A DNA stretch of 64,000 nt from an uncultured Rhodospirillaceae bacterium (lineage in GTDB: Bacteria > Pseudomonadota > Alphaproteobacteria > Rhodospirillales > UBA2165). This document shows positions 1-52,291 of this stretch, piece after piece. The first letter of the stretch is position 1; every line of letters begins with the position of its first letter. The stretch lies in assembly GCA_964566055.1 (NCBI GenBank), contig CAZMHI010000004.1, positions 20,053 through 84,052 of the forward strand, read 5' to 3'. Both the position numbers and the translations under genes were made by a program. The notes under the pieces are model-generated. The model had not been told where the DNA came from. It searched no databases and saw nothing but the letters and a program-made list of their open reading frames with translations.

Positions 1-778
1 GAGGAGAATTATAGGTGCCGCCAGACAAGATAACCTCTCCGGTTGCCGTAGCCTCTTTGATTTCTCCTTGGTGGAGGTAGCGCACACCAACGGCACGCCG
101 ATTTTCGGTTAGAACTTTATGTGCATGGGCGCGGGTGAGTACTGTTAAATTGGCGCGTTTCGCTGCCGGGCGTAAAAAAGCCCGGGCAGTTGATGAGCGT
201 CTGCCATGTCCGATCGTCATATCCGGTCGGGCCAGTCCTTCAGGATCGATGCCGTTGAAATCTTCGGTTATCGGTACACCAATTTTTTCAGCAGCCTCGT
301 GTAAAAGTTTATGTAAGGGATTTTTTACGCCACTTGGCGAAACTTTTAATGGCCCGCTGCCGCCATGAAAATCGCTGTCTCCACCCCAATGTCTCTCTGA
401 TCTCTTGAAATAAGGCAGCACATCTTGATAGCTCCATCCTTTCAAGCCCGACTGGTGCCATTGATCGTAGTCACTCGGATGTCCCCGGGCGTAAATCATC
501 GCATTAACAGATGACGTGCCGCCAAGAAGCTTTCCTCTGGGAGGTTCAAACACCCGATTGTTGCAATAAGGTTCAGGCTCAGTTTTGATGTTCCACAGAA
601 ATTTATTTGGGCCGACCGATACTTTTGGCATCGCCAGCGGAATGTGGATGAAAGGGTGCCGGTCTGGGCCGCCAGATTCCAATAACAAAACGCTATTGCT
701 TGAGTCCTCACTTAACCGGTTAGCCAATACACAGCCCGCTGAACCTGCTCCGATGATGATGTAGTCAAAGGAAATCAT
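1..778 (-). CDS. GMC-family FAD oxidoreductase (choline/alcohol dehydrogenase-like), N-terminal ~259 aa; the 3' end lies beyond the window start
   Basis: Absent from the ORF track because it runs off the edge. Reverse-strand translation from ATG (776-778) reads MISFDYIIIGAGSAGCVLANRLSEDSSNSVLLLESGGPD...GKLLGGTSSVNAMIYARG. That is a GxGxxG FAD fold plus the GMC signature. The frame is open to position 1. Confidence 0.85.
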   Translation of the reverse strand, partial: MISFDYIIIGAGSAGCVLANRLSEDSSNSVLLLESGGPDRHPFIHIPLAMPKVSVGPNKFLWNIKTEPEPYCNNRVFEPPRGKLLGGTSSVNAMIYARGHPSDYDQWHQSGLKGWSYQDVLPYFKRSERHWGGDSDFHGGSGPLKVSPSGVKNPLHKLLHEAAEKIGVPITEDFNGIDPEGLARPDMTIGHGRRSSTARAFLRPAAKRANLTVLTRAHAHKVLTENRRAVGVRYLHQGEIKEATATGEVILSGGTYNSP

Positions 779-14198: not shown

Positions 14199-16526
14199 CT
14201 ACTCCTGTTGCTCCAGCACGTCCAAGACTTTTTCAGGTGTCATTGGTAGAGAATTTGGCCGCCCGCCAATAGCATCATCAATGGCATTGGCAATTGCTGG
14301 CGCGACGCCAACCATCGCCGGTTCACCGACACCCTTGGCGCCGAAAGGTCCAGCTGGTTCCGGGTCTTCAACAATTATCGTCTGAACTTTGGGCACTTCT
14401 TTGACGCCCGGCACTTTGTATTCCATCAGCGTTGGATTGACCAAACGGCCATTGTCCCAGACCATTTCTTCAAACAGCGCATAGCCCATGCCTTGGGCGA
14501 AACCACCTTGGATTTGGCCTTCAATATTTGTCGGATTAATCGCCTTACCGACATCAGCGGCAGCCCAGGCTTTGACCACTTCAACCTGGCCGGTGACTTC
14601 GTCAACATCAACGGCGGCACCCTGAACGCCGTAAATATAGGCGCCCATATTACCGAAGACGACGGCTTTCATCTTGGAGCCTTCACGATCGAAGGGCGGT
14701 CCATCAAAAACAAACGTATGGGTGCCGATGATCGGTCCGCCAACCCCATAATGCGCACGCAACGAGGCCTCTTTAAAAGTGATGGTGCGGTTGACCAAAG
14801 GACTGTCTGTAACGTCAGCTTTTACGCCGACCTGGCCGCCTGAAATTAACGTCAGCTGAGCCGGGTCACAGTCGAGCATAGCAGCTGCGTGTTCCATGAT
14901 CTGATCGGCAACGTCTTCGGCTGCCGCCTTAACTGCCCGGCCCGTGGTGTAGGTGGTGCGGCTGCCGACAGATTTGTAATTGTAGGGTGTCGTGTCGGTA
15001 TCAGGCTCGGTTACATTTATGGCTTCGATCGGCAGCTTAAGAGCTTCGGCGCAAATTTGCGCCAAGATGGTACTCGCGCCCTGGCCGATCTCAATACCGC
15101 CGGTATTCATGGTAATGGTGCCGTCTTCACGCAGTTGCACTGAAGCACCGCTGGCCAAAAAACTGCTGATATGGGCAAAACCTGAAAAACCAAAGCCGCG
15201 TTTTTTACCGGCTACAGGTGGCGGCAATTGATCTTTATCTAGTTCCGCCGCCTTTTGTACTTCTTCGAGGCATTGGGCAAAGCCGCAGGCCGGCACTTCC
15301 TGGCCGCCCAGCCATTTATCGCCGGCCACCATGGCGTTCTTTTGGCGCACTTCCATTGGTGACAGCTCAAGCGCTTGGGCGAGGCGGTCAATCAGGCATT
15401 CACGGGCGATGGTGGTTTGCGGATTGCCGAAGCCCCGGAACGAGCCGGCTCGTAGTTTATTGGTGTAAAATGCCCGGGCTGAGCCGCGGAAATTTGGGAT
15501 CCGGTAGGGCCCCCGCGCCATCATCAGGCCGAAACTTGCAACCGCCGGGGTTTCGTCCATGAAAGAGCCGCCATCGAACAATAGTTCGGCTTCCTGAGCG
15601 ATAAAAGTGCCGTCTTTCTTAGCGCCCATTTTCATGCGCACGCGTGACGGGTGACGCGACCGGCAGGTTTCAAAATCCAAGGTGCGAGAGAGAGTAATTT
15701 TAACCGGTTTGCTGGCTTTAAGCGCCAGGGCAGCGGCAATCGGCTGCATATGAGGCCCAGCCCGGCCACCAAAGCCACCACCAACAGCTGGAGAAATTGC
15801 CCGCACTTTGGTAAGCGGCAGGCCGAGATAATCAGCTGTCCGGGTTTGAATGAAATGAACACCCTGGTTCGGCCCCCAAACCGTTACTTTACCATTAGCG
15901 TCGACATCGGCGAGAGCAGAGGCTGGCTCTAAATAGAGATGATGCTGAGCCTGGGTCTCAAATGTTTCTTCGACCACGGCATCGCACTCAGCCCAGGCAG
16001 CATCAACATCACCTTCCTCTGCCGAGGTTGCCCAGCATTCATTGCCGCTAACCTCGAGGTCCGTTACTTTCATTTGGTAGGTAGAGAAATCCGGGTGGAT
16101 GATCGGCAGATCAGGATTCATCGCATCATCAATCGAGAGAATTGGCGTCAGCTCTTCATACTCGACTTGGATCAAGCGGGTGGCTTCTTCAGCGGCTTCT
16201 CGCGAGCGAGCGGCAACGGCGGCAACCGGCTCACCGATATAGCGGACCCTGCCTTTGGCCAGCAAGGTTTCGTCTTTGACGTGGCCACCGCTGCGAAACC
16301 AATCATAGTCATCACCGGTGATGACGGCTTTGACGCCGGGCACCTTAAGGGCTGCAGAAATATCGTAAGATACTATGGTGGCATGGGCGTGCGGGCTTGT
16401 AGCAATGGCCCCAAAGAGCATGCCGGGCAAGGTCATGTCATCGGTATAGCGGGCGCGACCGATTGCTTTATCTTTACCTTCGAGCCGGGTAACGCGTTGG
16501 CCAATCGTGTCTAAGACTTCGGTCAT
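14199..16526 (-). CDS. Xanthine-dehydrogenase-family molybdopterin-binding large subunit (set 1)
   Basis: 775 aa. It has an Ald_Xan_dh N-terminal domain (GRARYTDDMTLPGMLFGAIATSPHAHA) and the GGGFGGR Mo-cofactor motif. It overlaps the 2Fe-2S subunit gene by 4 nt. Confidence 0.9.
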   Translation of the reverse strand: MTEVLDTIGQRVTRLEGKDKAIGRARYTDDMTLPGMLFGAIATSPHAHATIVSYDISAALKVPGVKAVITGDDYDWFRSGGHVKDETLLAKGRVRYIGEPVAAVAARSREAAEEATRLIQVEYEELTPILSIDDAMNPDLPIIHPDFSTYQMKVTDLEVSGNECWATSAEEGDVDAAWAECDAVVEETFETQAQHHLYLEPASALADVDANGKVTVWGPNQGVHFIQTRTADYLGLPLTKVRAISPAVGGGFGGRAGPHMQPIAAALALKASKPVKITLSRTLDFETCRSRHPSRVRMKMGAKKDGTFIAQEAELLFDGGSFMDETPAVASFGLMMARGPYRIPNFRGSARAFYTNKLRAGSFRGFGNPQTTIARECLIDRLAQALELSPMEVRQKNAMVAGDKWLGGQEVPACGFAQCLEEVQKAAELDKDQLPPPVAGKKRGFGFSGFAHISSFLASGASVQLREDGTITMNTGGIEIGQGASTILAQICAEALKLPIEAINVTEPDTDTTPYNYKSVGSRTTYTTGRAVKAAAEDVADQIMEHAAAMLDCDPAQLTLISGGQVGVKADVTDSPLVNRTITFKEASLRAHYGVGGPIIGTHTFVFDGPPFDREGSKMKAVVFGNMGAYIYGVQGAAVDVDEVTGQVEVVKAWAAADVGKAINPTNIEGQIQGGFAQGMGYALFEEMVWDNGRLVNPTLMEYKVPGVKEVPKVQTIIVEDPEPAGPFGAKGVGEPAMVGVAPAIANAIDDAIGGRPNSLPMTPEKVLDVLEQQE

Positions 16527-37791: not shown

Positions 37792-38526
37792 TTACGCCTC
37801 GCTATCCAGCTCCGGATAATGGCGGAACACACCCATGGTGTTGAACGGAATGCGCCGCTCGGAGGCTAAATAGGCCGCCGTATTTGGCCGTTCCGCCACC
37901 GCCTCATGAAGCGCGATCATCTGCGGATAATTGCCTTCAACTTTAGCAAAGGCCTTGGGGAATGCATAGCGGAGCCCTTCCACAATCTGGAATAACGACA
38001 AATCGGGATAGGTGAGGGCGTCACCAATCAGCCAGCCTGATTTGGCTGGATTGTTGGCAAGTATGCTTTCGTAATAGCCCATATGTTTGGGAATACGATG
38101 CTCGATGAAATTGGCGGCGCGTTTTTTAGATTCTTCGACCTGATCCTCGTAATAAAGCGCGCTGGCAATCGGATGATGGGTGTCGTGCACCTCCATCAAT
38201 AAATCCGTCACCGTGAGCTGAAGCTGATGGGCGAACACTTGATCCGCTTCGCTCTTAGGCGCGAGGCCGATCTTGGGCGCAAGGTAGTTCAGAATATTGG
38301 CGGCCTGTGCGATGGTCACATCACCATCGATCAGGAAAGGCGGTGCGAAGGGTGGGCGGGTCTGACTGGCATCTTGCAGGATTTCCAATATTGCTGCCCG
38401 GTTGTCTTCTTGTTCGCTTGGCAAGCGGGCGACATCAACGTAGTCGGCGCCGGCTTCTTCAAGGGCCAGGCGCACAACTTCACCCCGTCCCTGGATCATC
38501 GGCCAGTAATAGAATTGGTACGCCAT
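37792..38526 (-). CDS. Glutathione S-transferase family protein (Tyr-type N-terminus resembling alpha/mu/pi/sigma classes)
   Basis: 244 aa. The N-terminus YQFYYWPMIQGRGEVVRLALEEAG resembles the Y(F/W)xxRGRxExxR pattern. Its ATG directly abuts the upstream stop (TAGATG). Confidence 0.65.
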   Translation of the reverse strand: MAYQFYYWPMIQGRGEVVRLALEEAGADYVDVARLPSEQEDNRAAILEILQDASQTRPPFAPPFLIDGDVTIAQAANILNYLAPKIGLAPKSEADQVFAHQLQLTVTDLLMEVHDTHHPIASALYYEDQVEESKKRAANFIEHRIPKHMGYYESILANNPAKSGWLIGDALTYPDLSLFQIVEGLRYAFPKAFAKVEGNYPQMIALHEAVAERPNTAAYLASERRIPFNTMGVFRHYPELDSEA

Positions 38527-39135
38527 CTAACTATGCGACCAGTTGTCGGGATCATCGGAATCGTTAGGCGACAATCCTAAAATGTCTCCCTCGGTTGAGC
38601 AGCCGAGACCCACGACCGTGCGGTTGGCATAAGCGAAATAGGAGACCAACTGGTTGATTTCCAGAATCTCACCATCATCATAGCCGGCATCCCGCATGTC
38701 TTTCACCAACTGCTCCGGCATGTCAGTGACGTCGACGGTGAGAGCTCTCGCATAACGTAGTGCCGCCGCTTCCTGATCTGAGAACACGCCTTCAAATTGA
38801 TCGGTCTCCAAGGCTGCTCGAATGGCAGTCGAAAGTTCTTCATTATCCAGCAAACGCGTTAGACCCGCGAAATGATGCTCGACACAATAATGACAATTGT
38901 TGAGATGACTGACATAAACGCCGAGAGTTTCCAGAAACCACTTGGGCACCTGATTGGCCGAATGATGGATGACATACTTATAAATGGTCATATGCGCCTC
39001 CATCGTGTGCGGACGGAGGCTGTGCATCATCATGATATTATCGACGTTATTATCGGGGCCTTTCACTTTGTCATAAAGCGATTTCAGGCGGCCTTCAGCA
39101 TCGTCGTAGTCGACGACATCAATCCATGGGGTCAT
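38527..39135 (-). CDS. AhpD-like / carboxymuconolactone decarboxylase-family protein (uncharacterised peroxidase-related enzyme type), Cys form
   Basis: 202 aa with the CxxC redox motif in the context LGVYVSHLNNCHYCVEHH. It lies 11 nt downstream of the peroxiredoxin gene. Confidence 0.75.
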   Translation of the reverse strand: MTPWIDVVDYDDAEGRLKSLYDKVKGPDNNVDNIMMMHSLRPHTMEAHMTIYKYVIHHSANQVPKWFLETLGVYVSHLNNCHYCVEHHFAGLTRLLDNEELSTAIRAALETDQFEGVFSDQEAAALRYARALTVDVTDMPEQLVKDMRDAGYDDGEILEINQLVSYFAYANRTVVGLGCSTEGDILGLSPNDSDDPDNWSHS

Positions 39136-39146
39136 TCGTACTTCCT

Positions 39147-39590
39147 TTAAAGTGAGGCTAAATCAGCCAGTACCTGATCCGGATGCTCCGCCGGTGTCAC
39201 TGTCTCATACGCTTTGGCCACCGACCCATCCGGTGCAACCAGTACCGATATCCGGCTGGCATTGCCGGTATCCGAGGTGACGACGCCATAAGCTGTCGAG
39301 GCCGCTCGATCCCCATCTGTTAACAGATCATACGGAAAGTCGAACTTGTCTTTGAACGCTTTGTTATCGGCGTTGCTGTCGAAACTCACCCCGAGAATGA
39401 CACAATTTTTATCATTAAAGTCTTGGATTCGATCACGGAACCCATTGCCTTCGATGGTTCAACCTGGTGTATCGGCTTTGGGATACCACCAGAGCAAAAC
39501 ATATTTGCCCGAAAAGTCATCAAGCGACACAGCCGCGCCGTCTTGATTGGTAAAGGAAAAGGCCGGAGCCTGCTCACCTGCTGCTATCAT
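39147..39590 (-). CDS. Bcp-type peroxiredoxin with an in-frame UGA (predicted selenocysteine) at the peroxidatic position
   Basis: ORF-track pieces 39459..39653 and 39147..39389 are in the same frame. Read through TGA (39459-39461) the protein is MIAAGEQAPAFSF...YVLLWWYPKADTPG-U-TIEGNGFRDRIQDFNDKNCVILGVSFDS..., 147 aa. The UGA aligns with the Cys of the PGCT Prx motif. RBS AGGTGG lies upstream of ATG 39590. Confidence 0.7.
39425..39443 (-). other. Candidate bacterial SECIS hairpin for the peroxiredoxin UGA
   Basis: The mRNA reads GGGUUC-CGUGAUC-GAAUCC (6 bp including one G-U pair, 7-nt loop containing GU). It begins 16 nt after the UGA codon. An alternative stem GAACCAU/AUG(G)GUUC overlaps the UGA. 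Confidence 0.35.
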
Positions 39591-39797
39591 GGTTTTGTTC
39601 CACCTTTCTATTTTTGAAATAAGCCAAAAAAGTGCCCTGAGTAAATGTCTCATCCAACCAGCTTAGCGCGCTGCCATGCGTTGTAAAGACCGCTCTGAGA
39701 TTCAAGTTGACTCTGAATCGGCCTACGCTAAAGTATGTTTAGATACTAAATCAATGTTTTATATATGAAACGTTCTGGTACCTAAAGGTATTCATAA

Positions 39798-51670: not shown

Positions 51671-52291
51671 ATGGATGCACCAAACCCTAAAATTACCAAA
51701 GAAGAAGAACCGTTTATTCCTTATGTTGAGGAAGAAAACTATCCGGAAAGCCTGCAGCCTCTGCTTGGGCCCTATATTGAGCGGATGGGATTCTTACCCA
51801 ACGCCTTGAAACTATATATGCACCGGCCGGAAATCGCCGGCACGCTTTTTGCGCTCAACAGTAACATTATGCGCGATCCATCTTCGACCCTGGATCAGCA
51901 GCTCAAACGTAAATTGGGCACGGTTGCGAGTAAGATCAACGGGTGCACCTATTGAACAAGCCATGGCTGCGGCGTGCTGCAGAACGATGGTGAAGACGGT
52001 GCCGAAGGCTGGGATTTTGACAACGAAGAACTTTCCGAGTTGTTGACCGATCCGCAGCCCAAGGACGATTTCGAAAAGGCTTGTTTTGACTATGTTGAAG
52101 CGGCTTCTTTCGACCCGGCCAATGTGCCGGACGAGGTGTTGGAAAATCTCAAAAAGCACCTCACGCCCCCGCAAGTGGTTGAACTCGCTTGTGTTGTTGG
52201 CTTCTGGAAGATGTACAATACTATCCACGACAGTTTGAAGATTCCGCTTGAGAAGCATCTTCATGCGGTTTCGGGTTTTGTTGATCTTTAG
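51671..52291 (+). CDS. AhpD-like / carboxymuconolactone decarboxylase-family protein with an in-frame UGA (predicted selenocysteine) in a C-x-x-U motif
   Basis: ORF-track pieces 51671..51955 and 51974..52291 share a frame. Read through TGA (51953-51955) the protein is ...LGTVASKINGCTY-U-TSHGCGVLQ..., 206 aa. This aligns with the LGVYVSHLNNCHYCVEHH motif of the Cys paralogue at 38527-39135. RBS AAGGAGGAA. Confidence 0.7.
51961..51990 (+). other. Candidate SECIS hairpin for the AhpD-like UGA
   Basis: Lower stem CCAU/AUGG (51961-64 / 51987-90). Upper stem CUGCGG/CUGCAG (CUGC:GCAG plus G-U and G-C pairs). Apical loop CGUG. It starts 6 nt after the UGA codon. Confidence 0.35.

What the first reader, a model, noticed from the sequence alone, without database searches (positions are those of the whole stretch)
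39147..39653. Split ORFs are a single peroxiredoxin with UGA-selenocysteine at the catalytic site
The two ORF-track fragments (39459..39653 and 39147..39389) are in the same frame and separated by one TGA (39459-39461). Read-through gives ...LLWWYPKADTPG-U-TIEGNGFRD..., so the stop replaces exactly the peroxidatic Cys of the universal PxxxTxxC Prx motif. The downstream sequence keeps a normal Bcp fold pattern (GVSFDS..., FPYDLLTD). A 6-bp hairpin with a GU-containing loop starts 16 nt after the UGA. selD with its own UGA is present in the window, and a second redox protein shows the same Cys-to-UGA pattern.
Basis: partly seen in the sequence, partly recalled or inferred. Interest (0 to 1): 0.6.

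Follow-up and report, generated by a model that had tools for sequence, protein, structure and literature searches.

The report
Selenocysteine peroxiredoxin gene, known marine family
The two "split" reading frames are one peroxiredoxin gene whose catalytic cysteine is replaced by UGA-encoded selenocysteine; the reading is correct, but it belongs to a marine selenoprotein family catalogued since 2005, so it is ordinary.

Summary

- **The gene.** A 147-codon BCP/PrxQ-type peroxiredoxin (39147-39590, minus strand) has one in-frame TGA (39459-39461) at the peroxidatic Cys of PxxxTxxC.
- **Homologs.** The same codon is TGA in 78 of 80 species-representative genomes and in 30 metagenome relatives. 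It is TGC or TGT in more distant homologs, and never TGG, TAA or TAG.
- **Downstream frame.** The reading frame after the TGA stays open and under purifying selection.
- **SECIS-like hairpin.** The hairpin `UGGGUUC[CGUGAUC]GAAUCCA` lies at +18..+38. It is conserved with compensatory arm changes and is absent from Cys-codon homologs.
- **Sec machinery.** The same contig carries Sec-type selD, an AhpD-like CxxU gene and a UGSC-type gene, each with TGA plus a hairpin. In one relative, the TGA-Prx gene lies beside selA, selB and tRNA-Sec. selA, selB and selC were not found within about 10 kb either side of the window's contig region.
[quoted passage not shown] It is already known and of low interest.
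- **Side notes.** Public gene calls truncate the protein or translate the codon as Trp. Sec forms have mostly lost the resolving Cys.

The parts
39147..39590 (-). Complete peroxiredoxin (BCP/PrxQ-type) gene of 147 codons plus TAA. The likely start is the ATG at 39590, and Sec is residue 44.
   Evidence: sequence and frame. (Pfam AhpC-TSA, 2e-31). (best NCBIfam matches are BCP and PrxQ). (aligns at 1-144 to solved Bcp1, 3DRN). (invariant P37, T41, R113).
39459..39461 (-). In-frame TGA, read as the selenocysteine codon, replacing the peroxidatic Cys of PxxxTxxC.
   Evidence: TGA is conserved in 38 of 77 motif-matched loci among the first 88 held (the other 39 are TGC or TGT; no TGG, TAA or TAG), and in 78 of 80 GTDB species genomes.
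39417..39452 (-). SECIS-like stem-loop inside the coding sequence. The upper stem-loop is 39424-39444 (UGGGUUC[CGUGAUC]GAAUCCA, +18..+38). The lower 4-bp helix joins +10..13 with +42..45.
   Evidence: fold. (present in TGA loci and weaker in Cys loci; MFE -11.5 vs -7.0 kcal/mol, p=1.6e-6). (core 6 bp paired in 18 of 18 sequences, with compensatory changes). (same hairpin across genomes; absent in the 2 TGC genomes).
39600..39606 (-). Shine-Dalgarno-like AAGGTGG, 9 nt upstream of the ATG at 39590.
   Evidence: Read directly from the sequence.
38527..39135 (-). Next gene, 11 nt downstream of the Prx stop: an AhpD/CMD-like 'peroxidase-related enzyme' carrying a Cys-form CHYC motif. It is a possible redox partner.
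   Evidence: TIGR01926, 83.8 bits, cutoff 81.8. (sequence). The same position is occupied in L098 and L099.
37792..38526 (-). Glutathione S-transferase gene abutting the AhpD-like gene. The Prx-to-GST adjacency is conserved in the window's sub-clade.
   Evidence: GST_C_3, 2.6e-30. (GST directly downstream of Prx in L098-L101, L103, L104, L136 and L140).
61041..62087 (+). selD (selenophosphate synthetase) with in-frame TGA at 61089-61091 (Sec17, LSHGGG-U-GCK), followed by the hairpin AGCAC[CGUCG]GUGCU at 61103-61117.
   Evidence: (NF002098 SelD, 452 bits, cutoff 299, for the part after the TGA)..
51671..52291 (+). AhpD-like (TIGR01926-type) gene with in-frame TGA at 51953-51955 (CTY-U, a CxxU motif), followed by a hairpin at 51966-51985 with loop CGUG.
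   Evidence: (weak matches to TIGR01926 and to AhpD-related (seleno)protein models)..

Best explanation
This is a functional gene for a BCP/PrxQ-type peroxiredoxin in an uncultured marine Rhodospirillaceae bacterium. Its peroxidatic residue is selenocysteine.

During translation, the UGA at codon 44 is recoded. A stem-loop that begins 17 nt downstream, inside the coding sequence, is bound by SelB carrying Sec-tRNA(Sec), and this delivers Sec to the ribosome. The Sec-type selD on the same contig supplies selenophosphate.

The enzyme reduces peroxides through a selenolate to selenenic acid cycle at U44, within the conserved P37/T41/R113 active site.

This clade lacks the +5 resolving Cys of BCPs, and half of its members have no Cys at all. 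The selenenic acid is therefore most likely reduced directly by an external thiol, in a 1-Sec mechanism. In this lineage the reductant is plausibly glutathione delivered by the co-operonic GST and/or the AhpD-like CxxC protein.

Shown here: gene integrity, the Sec/Cys pair, the conserved covarying hairpin, selD, and linkage to selA/selB/selC in a relative. Inferred: actual Sec insertion, SelB binding, and the identity of the reductant.
For: - **One gene, Prx fold.** Pfam AhpC-TSA at 2e-31. Full-length alignment to solved BCPs at E=3e-21. P37, T41 and R113 are invariant across 43 homologs.
- **Sec/Cys pair.** The catalytic codon is TGA in 78 of 80 species-representative genomes and in 30 divergent metagenome relatives. 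It is TGC or TGT in 39 more distant ones, with no TGG and no other stop codon.
- **Downstream frame maintained.** There are no stops in the 55 codons after the TGA in 30 relatives. dN/dS is about 0.16 downstream and about 0.12 upstream.
- **SECIS.** The hairpin sits at a fixed position, with compensatory arm variants: GGGUUC/GAAUCC, GGGCUC/GAGCCC, GGAACUC/GAGUUCC and GGGCCUG/CAGGUCC. It is stronger than in Cys homologs at equal GC (p about 1e-6 to 1e-7). The two TGC genomes have no hairpin.
- **Sec trait in this organism.** selD has Sec at residue 17. The AhpD-like gene has CxxU. A UGSC-type gene on the contig flank has an in-frame TGA. All have hairpins with GU at +21 to +27.
- **Linkage to machinery.** In L163 the TGA-Prx gene lies beside selA (572 bits), selB (442 bits) and tRNA-Sec.
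- **Not an error.** All eight independent assemblies of this population carry the TGA.
- **TGA is still a stop.** It terminates 6 of 47 long ORFs in the window.
- **Known family.** The literature lists Prx TxxU (COG1225/pfam00578) as an abundant marine selenoprotein family (PMC1088965, PMC2398784, PMC13188914).
Against: - No selA, selB or tRNA-Sec was found in the window or in about 10 kb of contig on either side. The machinery of this particular genome is therefore inferred, not shown.
- No Rfam family matches the hairpin, even at E<=10.
- The single-sequence fold of the hairpin region is no more stable than shuffled sequence (z = -0.42). The case for the element rests on comparative data.
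- The homologs are phylogenetically related, so the p-values overstate independence.
- There is no protein-level evidence of Se incorporation.
- The proposed GST/AhpD-like reductant is supported only by gene adjacency in one sub-clade, 8 of about 73 genomes.
Confidence: 0.93

Rival explanations
1. The gene is a pseudogene. A nonsense mutation inactivated an ordinary Cys-peroxiredoxin, and the two ORF fragments are decaying remnants.
For: Gene callers and NCBI annotate only 64-aa, 80-aa and 102-aa fragments. selA, selB and selC were not seen near the locus.
Against: The same TGA at the same codon is present in more than 100 homologs down to about 40% identity. None shows other stops or frameshifts. 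The downstream half is under purifying selection and retains the catalytic Arg. A covarying hairpin accompanies the TGA and is missing when the codon is TGC.
Confidence: 0.02
2. TGA is reassigned in this organism, to Trp (code 4) or Gly (code 25). The residue would then be Trp or Gly, as many public gene calls imply.
For: 78 of the 120 best database homologs are recorded with W at this position.
Against: All of those W calls correspond to TGA in the DNA, never TGG. Trp or Gly at the peroxidatic position would abolish catalysis, while the rest of the active site is invariant. TGA terminates 6 of 47 long ORFs in the window, including the CoA-transferase A subunit at an ATGA overlap. In-frame TGAs were found only at Cys-equivalent redox positions of known selenoprotein families.
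Confidence: 0.01
3. The UGA is decoded mainly by something other than Sec. One option is Cys insertion by the Sec machinery or a near-cognate tRNA. Another is that it mostly terminates, so that the full-length selenoprotein is a minor product.
For: Bacterial Sec insertion competes with release factor 2, and Cys can be misinserted at UGA when selenium is scarce (general knowledge of the Sec system, not tested here). Open-ocean selenium is low.
Against: If Cys were the usual product, a TGC or TGT codon would be simpler, and it is used by related lineages that lack the hairpin. The Sec clade has specifically lost the resolving Cys: 7% keep it, versus 70% of Cys forms. This suggests chemistry adapted to selenium. 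Sec-type selD and three other TGA genes on the contig argue for an active Sec system.
Confidence: 0.04

Closest known systems
Marine bacterial Sec-containing peroxiredoxin family ('Prx', TxxU motif, COG1225/pfam00578), from the Sargasso Sea and GOS selenoproteomes (PMC1088965; PMC2398784)
   Same: It has the AhpC/TSA fold and UGA at the peroxidatic Cys (T-x-x-U). Cys homologs are widespread. A SECIS hairpin with a G in the apical loop lies immediately downstream. The source is marine bacteria. It co-occurs with SelD, AhpD-like (CxxU) and UGSC selenoproteins.
   Different: Nothing material. This is a member from a Rhodospirillaceae population. I could not compare directly with the 2005/2008 sequences, so sequence-level identity to those sets is inferred from family, motif and habitat.
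BCP/PrxQ peroxiredoxins with solved structures (S. solfataricus Bcp1 3DRN, Burkholderia 5ENU, Xanthomonas campestris BCP 3GKK/5IIZ)
   Same: There is full-length sequence similarity (E=3e-21 to 1e-18). The PxxxTxxC active-site motif and the catalytic Arg are present.
   Different: It has Sec instead of Cys at the peroxidatic site. It has no resolving Cys at +5 (TPG-U-TIEGN versus TPGCTxxxC). It scores below the NCBIfam BCP and PrxQ equivalog cut-offs (105 vs 140 and 94 vs 260).
PrxU, the experimentally shown Sec-peroxiredoxin of Eubacterium (Peptoclostridium) acidaminophilum (NCBIfam NF040737)
   Same: It is a peroxiredoxin with Sec at the peroxidatic position, and the only type with biochemical evidence (cited as ref. 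83 in PMC13188914).
   Different: It belongs to a different Prx subfamily. The window protein scores 54.8 bits against a cut-off of 270, and it is 147 aa against a profile of about 233 positions.
1-Cys peroxiredoxin Prdx6 reactivated by glutathione-loaded pi-class GST (mammals)
   Same: It is a peroxiredoxin without a resolving Cys. In the window's sub-clade the gene is followed by a GST with a GST_C_3-type C-terminal domain. This analogy is recalled from my own knowledge and was not tested.
   Different: The Prx subfamily is different (Prx6 versus BCP). It uses Sec, not Cys. The link rests on gene adjacency only, in 8 of about 73 genomes, and there is no biochemical evidence.

Membership tests
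Bacterial Sec-containing peroxiredoxin (Prx, TxxU) | AhpC/TSA (thioredoxin-fold peroxiredoxin) domain across the whole protein, spanning the UGA. | tested here: met
   Pfam PF00578 at 2e-31, residues 5-126. Aligns at 1-144 to 3DRN.
Bacterial Sec-containing peroxiredoxin (Prx, TxxU) | In-frame UGA aligned with the peroxidatic Cys of PxxxTxxC, with Cys-containing homologs at the same column. | tested here: met
   Among the first 88 held loci, 38 have TGA and 39 have TGC/TGT, with no TGG. 78 TGA and 2 TGC in 80 genomes. P37, T41 and R113 are invariant.
Bacterial Sec-containing peroxiredoxin (Prx, TxxU) | Bacterial SECIS: a stem-loop immediately downstream of the UGA, with a small apical loop containing G (GU) about 16-37 nt from the UGA. 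| tested here: met
   A 7-bp stem at +18..+38 with loop CGUGAUC. It is conserved, covaries, and is enriched relative to Cys homologs. The bSECISearch criteria were recalled from memory, and the program itself was not run.
Bacterial Sec-containing peroxiredoxin (Prx, TxxU) | The host genome has the Sec-decoding trait (selA, selB, selC, selD). | tested here: inconclusive
   selD (Sec form) is present. A relative (L163) has selA, selB and tRNA-Sec adjacent to its TGA-Prx gene.
Bacterial Sec-containing peroxiredoxin (Prx, TxxU) | Selenium is actually incorporated at the UGA position. | not testable with these tools
   This needs 75Se labelling or mass spectrometry.
BCP/PrxQ peroxiredoxin subfamily | Closest sequence relationship is to BCP/PrxQ rather than to AhpC/Prx1, Tpx, Prx5 or Prx6. 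| tested here: met
   The top NCBIfam hits are BCP (PRK09437, 105 bits) and PrxQ (94 bits), both below their equivalog cut-offs. The top 12 PDB hits are all BCPs.
BCP/PrxQ peroxiredoxin subfamily | Resolving Cys five residues after the peroxidatic residue (atypical 2-Cys CxxxxC). | tested here: not met
   The window has Asn at +5. Only 7% of 104 TGA-type proteins have Cys at +5, versus 70% of Cys-type. 1-Cys BCPs are known, so this defines a mechanistic subtype and does not exclude membership.
PrxU (NF040737, clostridial Sec-Prx) | Score at or above the curated equivalog cut-off. | tested here: not met
   54.8 bits against a cut-off of 270.
Rfam SECIS families | Covariance-model match to the region downstream of the UGA. 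| tested here: not met
   No hit at gathering score over the whole window. No hit at E<=10 on 39300-39600. Bacterial SECIS elements are poorly covered by Rfam, so this does not argue against function.

The most novel reading that the evidence does not exclude
The Sec-type BCPs form a mechanistically distinct '1-Sec' peroxidase clade that discarded the resolving Cys once selenium took over. 93% lack the +5 Cys and about half have no Cys at all. In the Rhodospirillaceae sub-clade of this window, they are recycled by a dedicated co-operonic GST (with or without an AhpD-like CxxC protein). This would be a bacterial analogue of the Prdx6/pi-GST relay. I did not find this stated in the papers I read.
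Probability: 0.3. Interest if true: 0.4.

Novelty: already known. Interest (0 to 1): 0.18.

Why it matters
Scientifically it adds little. [quoted passage not shown]

Its practical value is for annotation.
- The gene is truncated in NCBI MAG records, which list 80- or 102-aa 'redoxin domain-containing protein' entries.
- 78 of the 120 closest database proteins carry an impossible Trp at the catalytic site, because short contigs were called with genetic code 4.
- This window, with three TGA genes plus one on the contig flank, marks its Rhodospirillaceae lineage as selenoprotein-rich.

The loss of the resolving Cys in Sec forms, and the lineage-specific Prx-GST operon, are modest and testable leads about how selenium changes peroxiredoxin recycling.

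Tried and rejected
- **Rfam.** There were no matches at gathering score on the whole window, nor at E<=10 on 39300-39600. This is uninformative for bacterial SECIS.
- **Single-sequence folding.** The region after the UGA is not more stable than shuffles (z = -0.42). The structure was therefore judged only by comparison across homologs.
- **tRNA-Sec and selA/selB.** I searched the window and the contig flanks and found none. Walking further along the 102-kb contig was blocked by the look-up rules. The look-up with the UbiU protein also failed.
- **Pattern bias in the search for related loci.** One back-translated pattern used TGG/TGY for the catalytic column. This biases the metagenome set towards Cys codons, so TGA:Cys ratios are not frequencies.
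- **dN/dS.** dS was saturated for most pairs, so only the closest comparisons and the absence of stops were used.
- **General conserved partner gene.** I tested for one and rejected the idea. Apart from GST in the window's sub-clade, downstream neighbours are variable, and the AhpD-like gene follows Prx only in L098 and L099.
- **Cys63 as a resolving Cys.** Rejected as a general feature, because it is present in only 18% of Sec-type proteins.
- **Structure prediction.** Not run. Full-length homology to solved BCPs made it unnecessary.

Full report
**Observation**

On the minus strand, the frame that begins at 39653 runs to a TAA at 39147-39149 with a single in-frame stop. That stop is the TGA at 39459-39461, in the context ...LLWWYPKADTPG-*-TIEGNGFRD.... 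With Cys substituted for the stop, the 147-residue protein starting at the ATG at 39590 matches Pfam AhpC-TSA at E=2e-31 over residues 5-126. The match spans both 'fragments'. The ATG at 39590 is preceded by AAGGTGG and matches the N-termini of all homologs (MIxxGxxAP...), so the 21 extra upstream codons of the ORF track are not part of the gene. The TGA falls at the peroxidatic Cys of PxxxTxxC. P37, T41 and the catalytic R113 are invariant in a 43-sequence alignment.

**Family placement**

The best NCBIfam matches are BCP (PRK09437, 105 bits) and PrxQ (94 bits), both below their equivalog cut-offs. The clostridial selenoprotein model PrxU scores only 54.8 bits against a cut-off of 270. The twelve best solved structures are all BCPs, including 3DRN (E=3e-21, aligned 1-144), 5ENU and the Xanthomonas BCP. 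The protein is therefore a BCP/PrxQ-type peroxiredoxin.

**Sec/Cys pair**

A protein search returned 2285 homologs. Of the best 120, 78 have Trp at the catalytic position, 33 have Cys and 9 are fragments. Trp there is chemically impossible for a peroxiredoxin. At the DNA level, 38 of the first 88 loci fetched have TGA, 39 have TGC or TGT, and none has TGG, TAA or TAG. The 'W' is therefore TGA translated with genetic code 4 on short contigs. Among 80 GTDB species-representative genomes, 78 have TGA and 2 have TGC. Most are uncultured marine Rhodospirillaceae, Rhodospirillales or other Alphaproteobacteria. A few are Gammaproteobacteria, Defluviicoccus, Acidimicrobiales or Acidobacteriota. Eight independent assemblies of the window's own population all carry the TGA, so it is not a sequencing error.

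**The downstream half is maintained**

In 30 divergent TGA-bearing relatives there is no stop in the 55 codons after the TGA. Where dS is not saturated (L001 versus L009), dN/dS is 0.16 downstream and 0.12 upstream. This excludes a decaying pseudogene. TGA also terminates 6 of 47 long ORFs in the window, including the CoA-transferase A subunit at an ATGA overlap. The codon is therefore not globally reassigned.

**SECIS-like element**

Counting from the U of UGA, the window sequence forms UGGGUUC[CGUGAUC]GAAUCCA at +18..+38, with a short lower helix joining +10..13 and +42..45. On its own this fold is not more stable than shuffled sequence (z = -0.42). The comparative evidence is strong:
- Across 31 unique TGA loci, the region +10..+48 folds at -11.5 kcal/mol, against -7.0 for 38 Cys-codon homologs at equal GC (0.54 versus 0.53; p=1.6e-6).
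- The best perfect stem averages 7.1 bp against 5.1 bp (p=1.2e-7).
- In 23 of the 31, the 5' arm ends at exactly +24 and the loop begins CG(U/G)GA.
- The arms change in a compensatory way: GGGUUC/GAAUCC, GGAUUC/GAAUCC, GGGCUC/GAGCCC, GGAACUC/GAGUUCC, GAAGCUC/GAGUUUC, GUACUC/GAGUAC and GGGCCUG/CAGGUCC. Some of these require coordinated amino-acid changes.
- In an ungapped 18-sequence alignment, the six core pairs are formed in every sequence. Pair 22-34 switches UA to CG in three sequences, and pair 18-38 shows CG, UA and AU.
- Seven metagenome loci (L021, L022, L023, L025, L026, L035, L061) and the Acidimicrobiales and Acidobacteriota genomes L174 and L175 use a different hairpin, GGUCGCGG[GUU]CCGCGACC, with the loop at about +21.
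- The two genomes with TGC (L166, L167) have no hairpin; their best stem is 3 bp.

These comparisons are between related sequences, so the p-values overstate independence. The number of distinct compensatory solutions does not depend on that. Rfam has no matching model, at gathering score or at E<=10.

**Sec trait in this organism**

The window encodes selD with TGA at 61089-61091 (LSHGGG-U-GCKVAP, residue 17). The part after the TGA scores 452 bits to the SelD equivalog, against a cut-off of 299. An AhpD-like gene has TGA at 51953-51955 in KINGCTY-U-TSHG, a CxxU motif. About 9 kb upstream of the window on the same 102-kb contig, a UGSC-family gene next to a thioredoxin-reductase-like gene is split by TGA (GVGL-U-STC). 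Each TGA is followed by a small hairpin with GU at +21 to +27. Only 2.2% of all 2558 UGA trinucleotides in the window have a hairpin of at least 6 bp meeting these criteria, yet all three in-window candidates do.

No tRNA gene, selA or selB was found in the window or in about 10 kb of flank on either side. Downstream of selD lie ubiT, ubiU and ubiV, a radical-SAM gene and cobalamin genes. However, ARAGORN run over all 178 held sequences found one tRNA-Sec, on L163. This is a 4.4-kb contig of a Gammaproteobacteria MAG whose Prx (60% identical, with the same TGA and the same GGGUUC[CGUGAUC]GAAUCC hairpin) is transcribed divergently from selA (TIGR00474, 572 bits), selB (TIGR00475, 442 bits) and selC.

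**Mechanism**

Canonical BCPs resolve the oxidised peroxidatic Cys with a Cys five residues downstream. That Cys is present in 70% of 40 Cys-type homologs but in only 7% of 104 unique TGA-type proteins. Fifty of the 104 have no Cys at all, against 1 of 40. The window protein has Asn at +5. Its only Cys (C63) is found in just 18% of the clade. The most likely cycle is a 1-Sec one: selenolate to selenenic acid, reduced by an external thiol.

In the window the gene is the first of a tight minus-strand cluster. It is followed by an AhpD-like CxxC protein after an 11-nt gap, then an abutting GST, then an FAD monooxygenase. Prx-to-GST adjacency recurs in relatives at 64-93% identity (L098-L101, L103, L104, L136, L140). 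It is not conserved beyond that sub-clade, and the AhpD-like gene intervenes only in L098 and L099. A glutathione/GST-linked recycling step is therefore a lineage-specific inference, not a family property.

**Comparison with what is known**

[quoted passage not shown] By my own knowledge, COG1225 is the Bcp-type peroxiredoxin group. The GOS analysis lists Prx (pfam00578, TxxU) with 253 sequences in 34 samples. It also lists SelD (357), AhpD-like 1 (CxxU, 299) and UGSC-containing (UxxC, 255) (PMC2398784, Table 2). These are exactly the four families on this contig. A 2026 review lists Prx (TxxU) ahead of its 'Predicted with high confidence' families, citing ref. 83 (by my own knowledge, the PrxU work), and notes a PxxxTxxU motif (PMC13188914). 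The window gene is an ordinary member of this family.

**Verdict**

My confidence that this is a genuine Sec-encoding peroxiredoxin gene is about 0.93. The remaining uncertainty is that the genome's selA, selB and selC were not seen and no protein data exist. Novelty is 'already known' and interest is low (0.18).

The useful by-products are:
- annotation errors in public data, namely truncated proteins and Trp at the active site;
- the near-universal loss of the resolving Cys in Sec forms;
- a lineage-specific Prx-(AhpD-like)-GST operon.

Noticed in passing
window 51671-52291 (+), TGA at 51953-51955: A second candidate selenoprotein. It is an AhpD-like/TIGR01926-type protein with the motif C-T-Y-U (CxxU), followed by a 6-7 bp hairpin with loop CGUG. 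It lies directly after a UbiD-family decarboxylase gene and before a MarR regulator. It matches the known 'AhpD-like 1' marine selenoprotein family.
   Followed up: partly
window 61041-62087 (+), TGA at 61089-61091: selD encodes Sec at residue 17 (GGG-U-GCK), with a hairpin AGCAC[CGUCG]GUGCU at +15..+29. It is followed by ubiT, ubiU and ubiV (anaerobic ubiquinone biosynthesis), not by other selenium genes.
   Followed up: partly
L089:14997-16631 (+), TGA at 15285. This is the same contig, about 9 kb upstream of the window start.: A UGSC-family gene (called as 96 aa + 436 aa) is split by an in-frame TGA (GVGL-U-STC, UxxC), followed by CCGAC[GGUC]GUCGG. It lies directly after a thioredoxin-reductase-like gene. 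This is the fourth TGA-plus-hairpin gene on the contig.
   Followed up: partly
Protein database hits P0001-P0084: 78 of the 120 closest database proteins carry Trp at the peroxidatic position. Gene callers used genetic code 4 on short contigs; the DNA is TGA in every case checked. NCBI MAG records instead list truncated 80- or 102-aa 'redoxin domain-containing protein' entries.
   Followed up: yes
104 TGA-type versus 40 Cys-type homologs from L009-L177: Sec-type BCPs have almost entirely lost the +5 resolving Cys (7% versus 70%), and about half contain no Cys at all (50 of 104, versus 1 of 40). I did not find this stated in the papers I read.
   Followed up: partly
L163:218-4296: In a Gammaproteobacteria MAG contig, the TGA-Prx gene is divergently adjacent to a selA-selB-tRNA(Sec) cluster.
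   Followed up: yes
L021, L022, L025, L026, L035, L174, L175 (metagenome loci plus Acidimicrobiales and Acidobacteriota genomes): These TGA-Prx genes use a different hairpin, GGUCGCGG[GUU]CCGCGACC, with the loop about 5 nt closer to the UGA. The same recoding problem has therefore been solved with a second structure built from the same conserved codons (G-F-R-D).
   Followed up: partly
window 37792-39135 (-), and L098-L104, L136, L140: The Prx gene heads a tight cluster with an AhpD-like CxxC protein (Cys form) and a GST. Prx-to-GST adjacency is conserved only in the window's sub-clade (64-93% identity).
   Followed up: partly
whole window: TGA is the rarest stop codon among long ORFs (TAA 26, TAG 15, TGA 6), despite 50.6% GC. 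I did not examine whether this relates to heavy Sec use.
   Followed up: no
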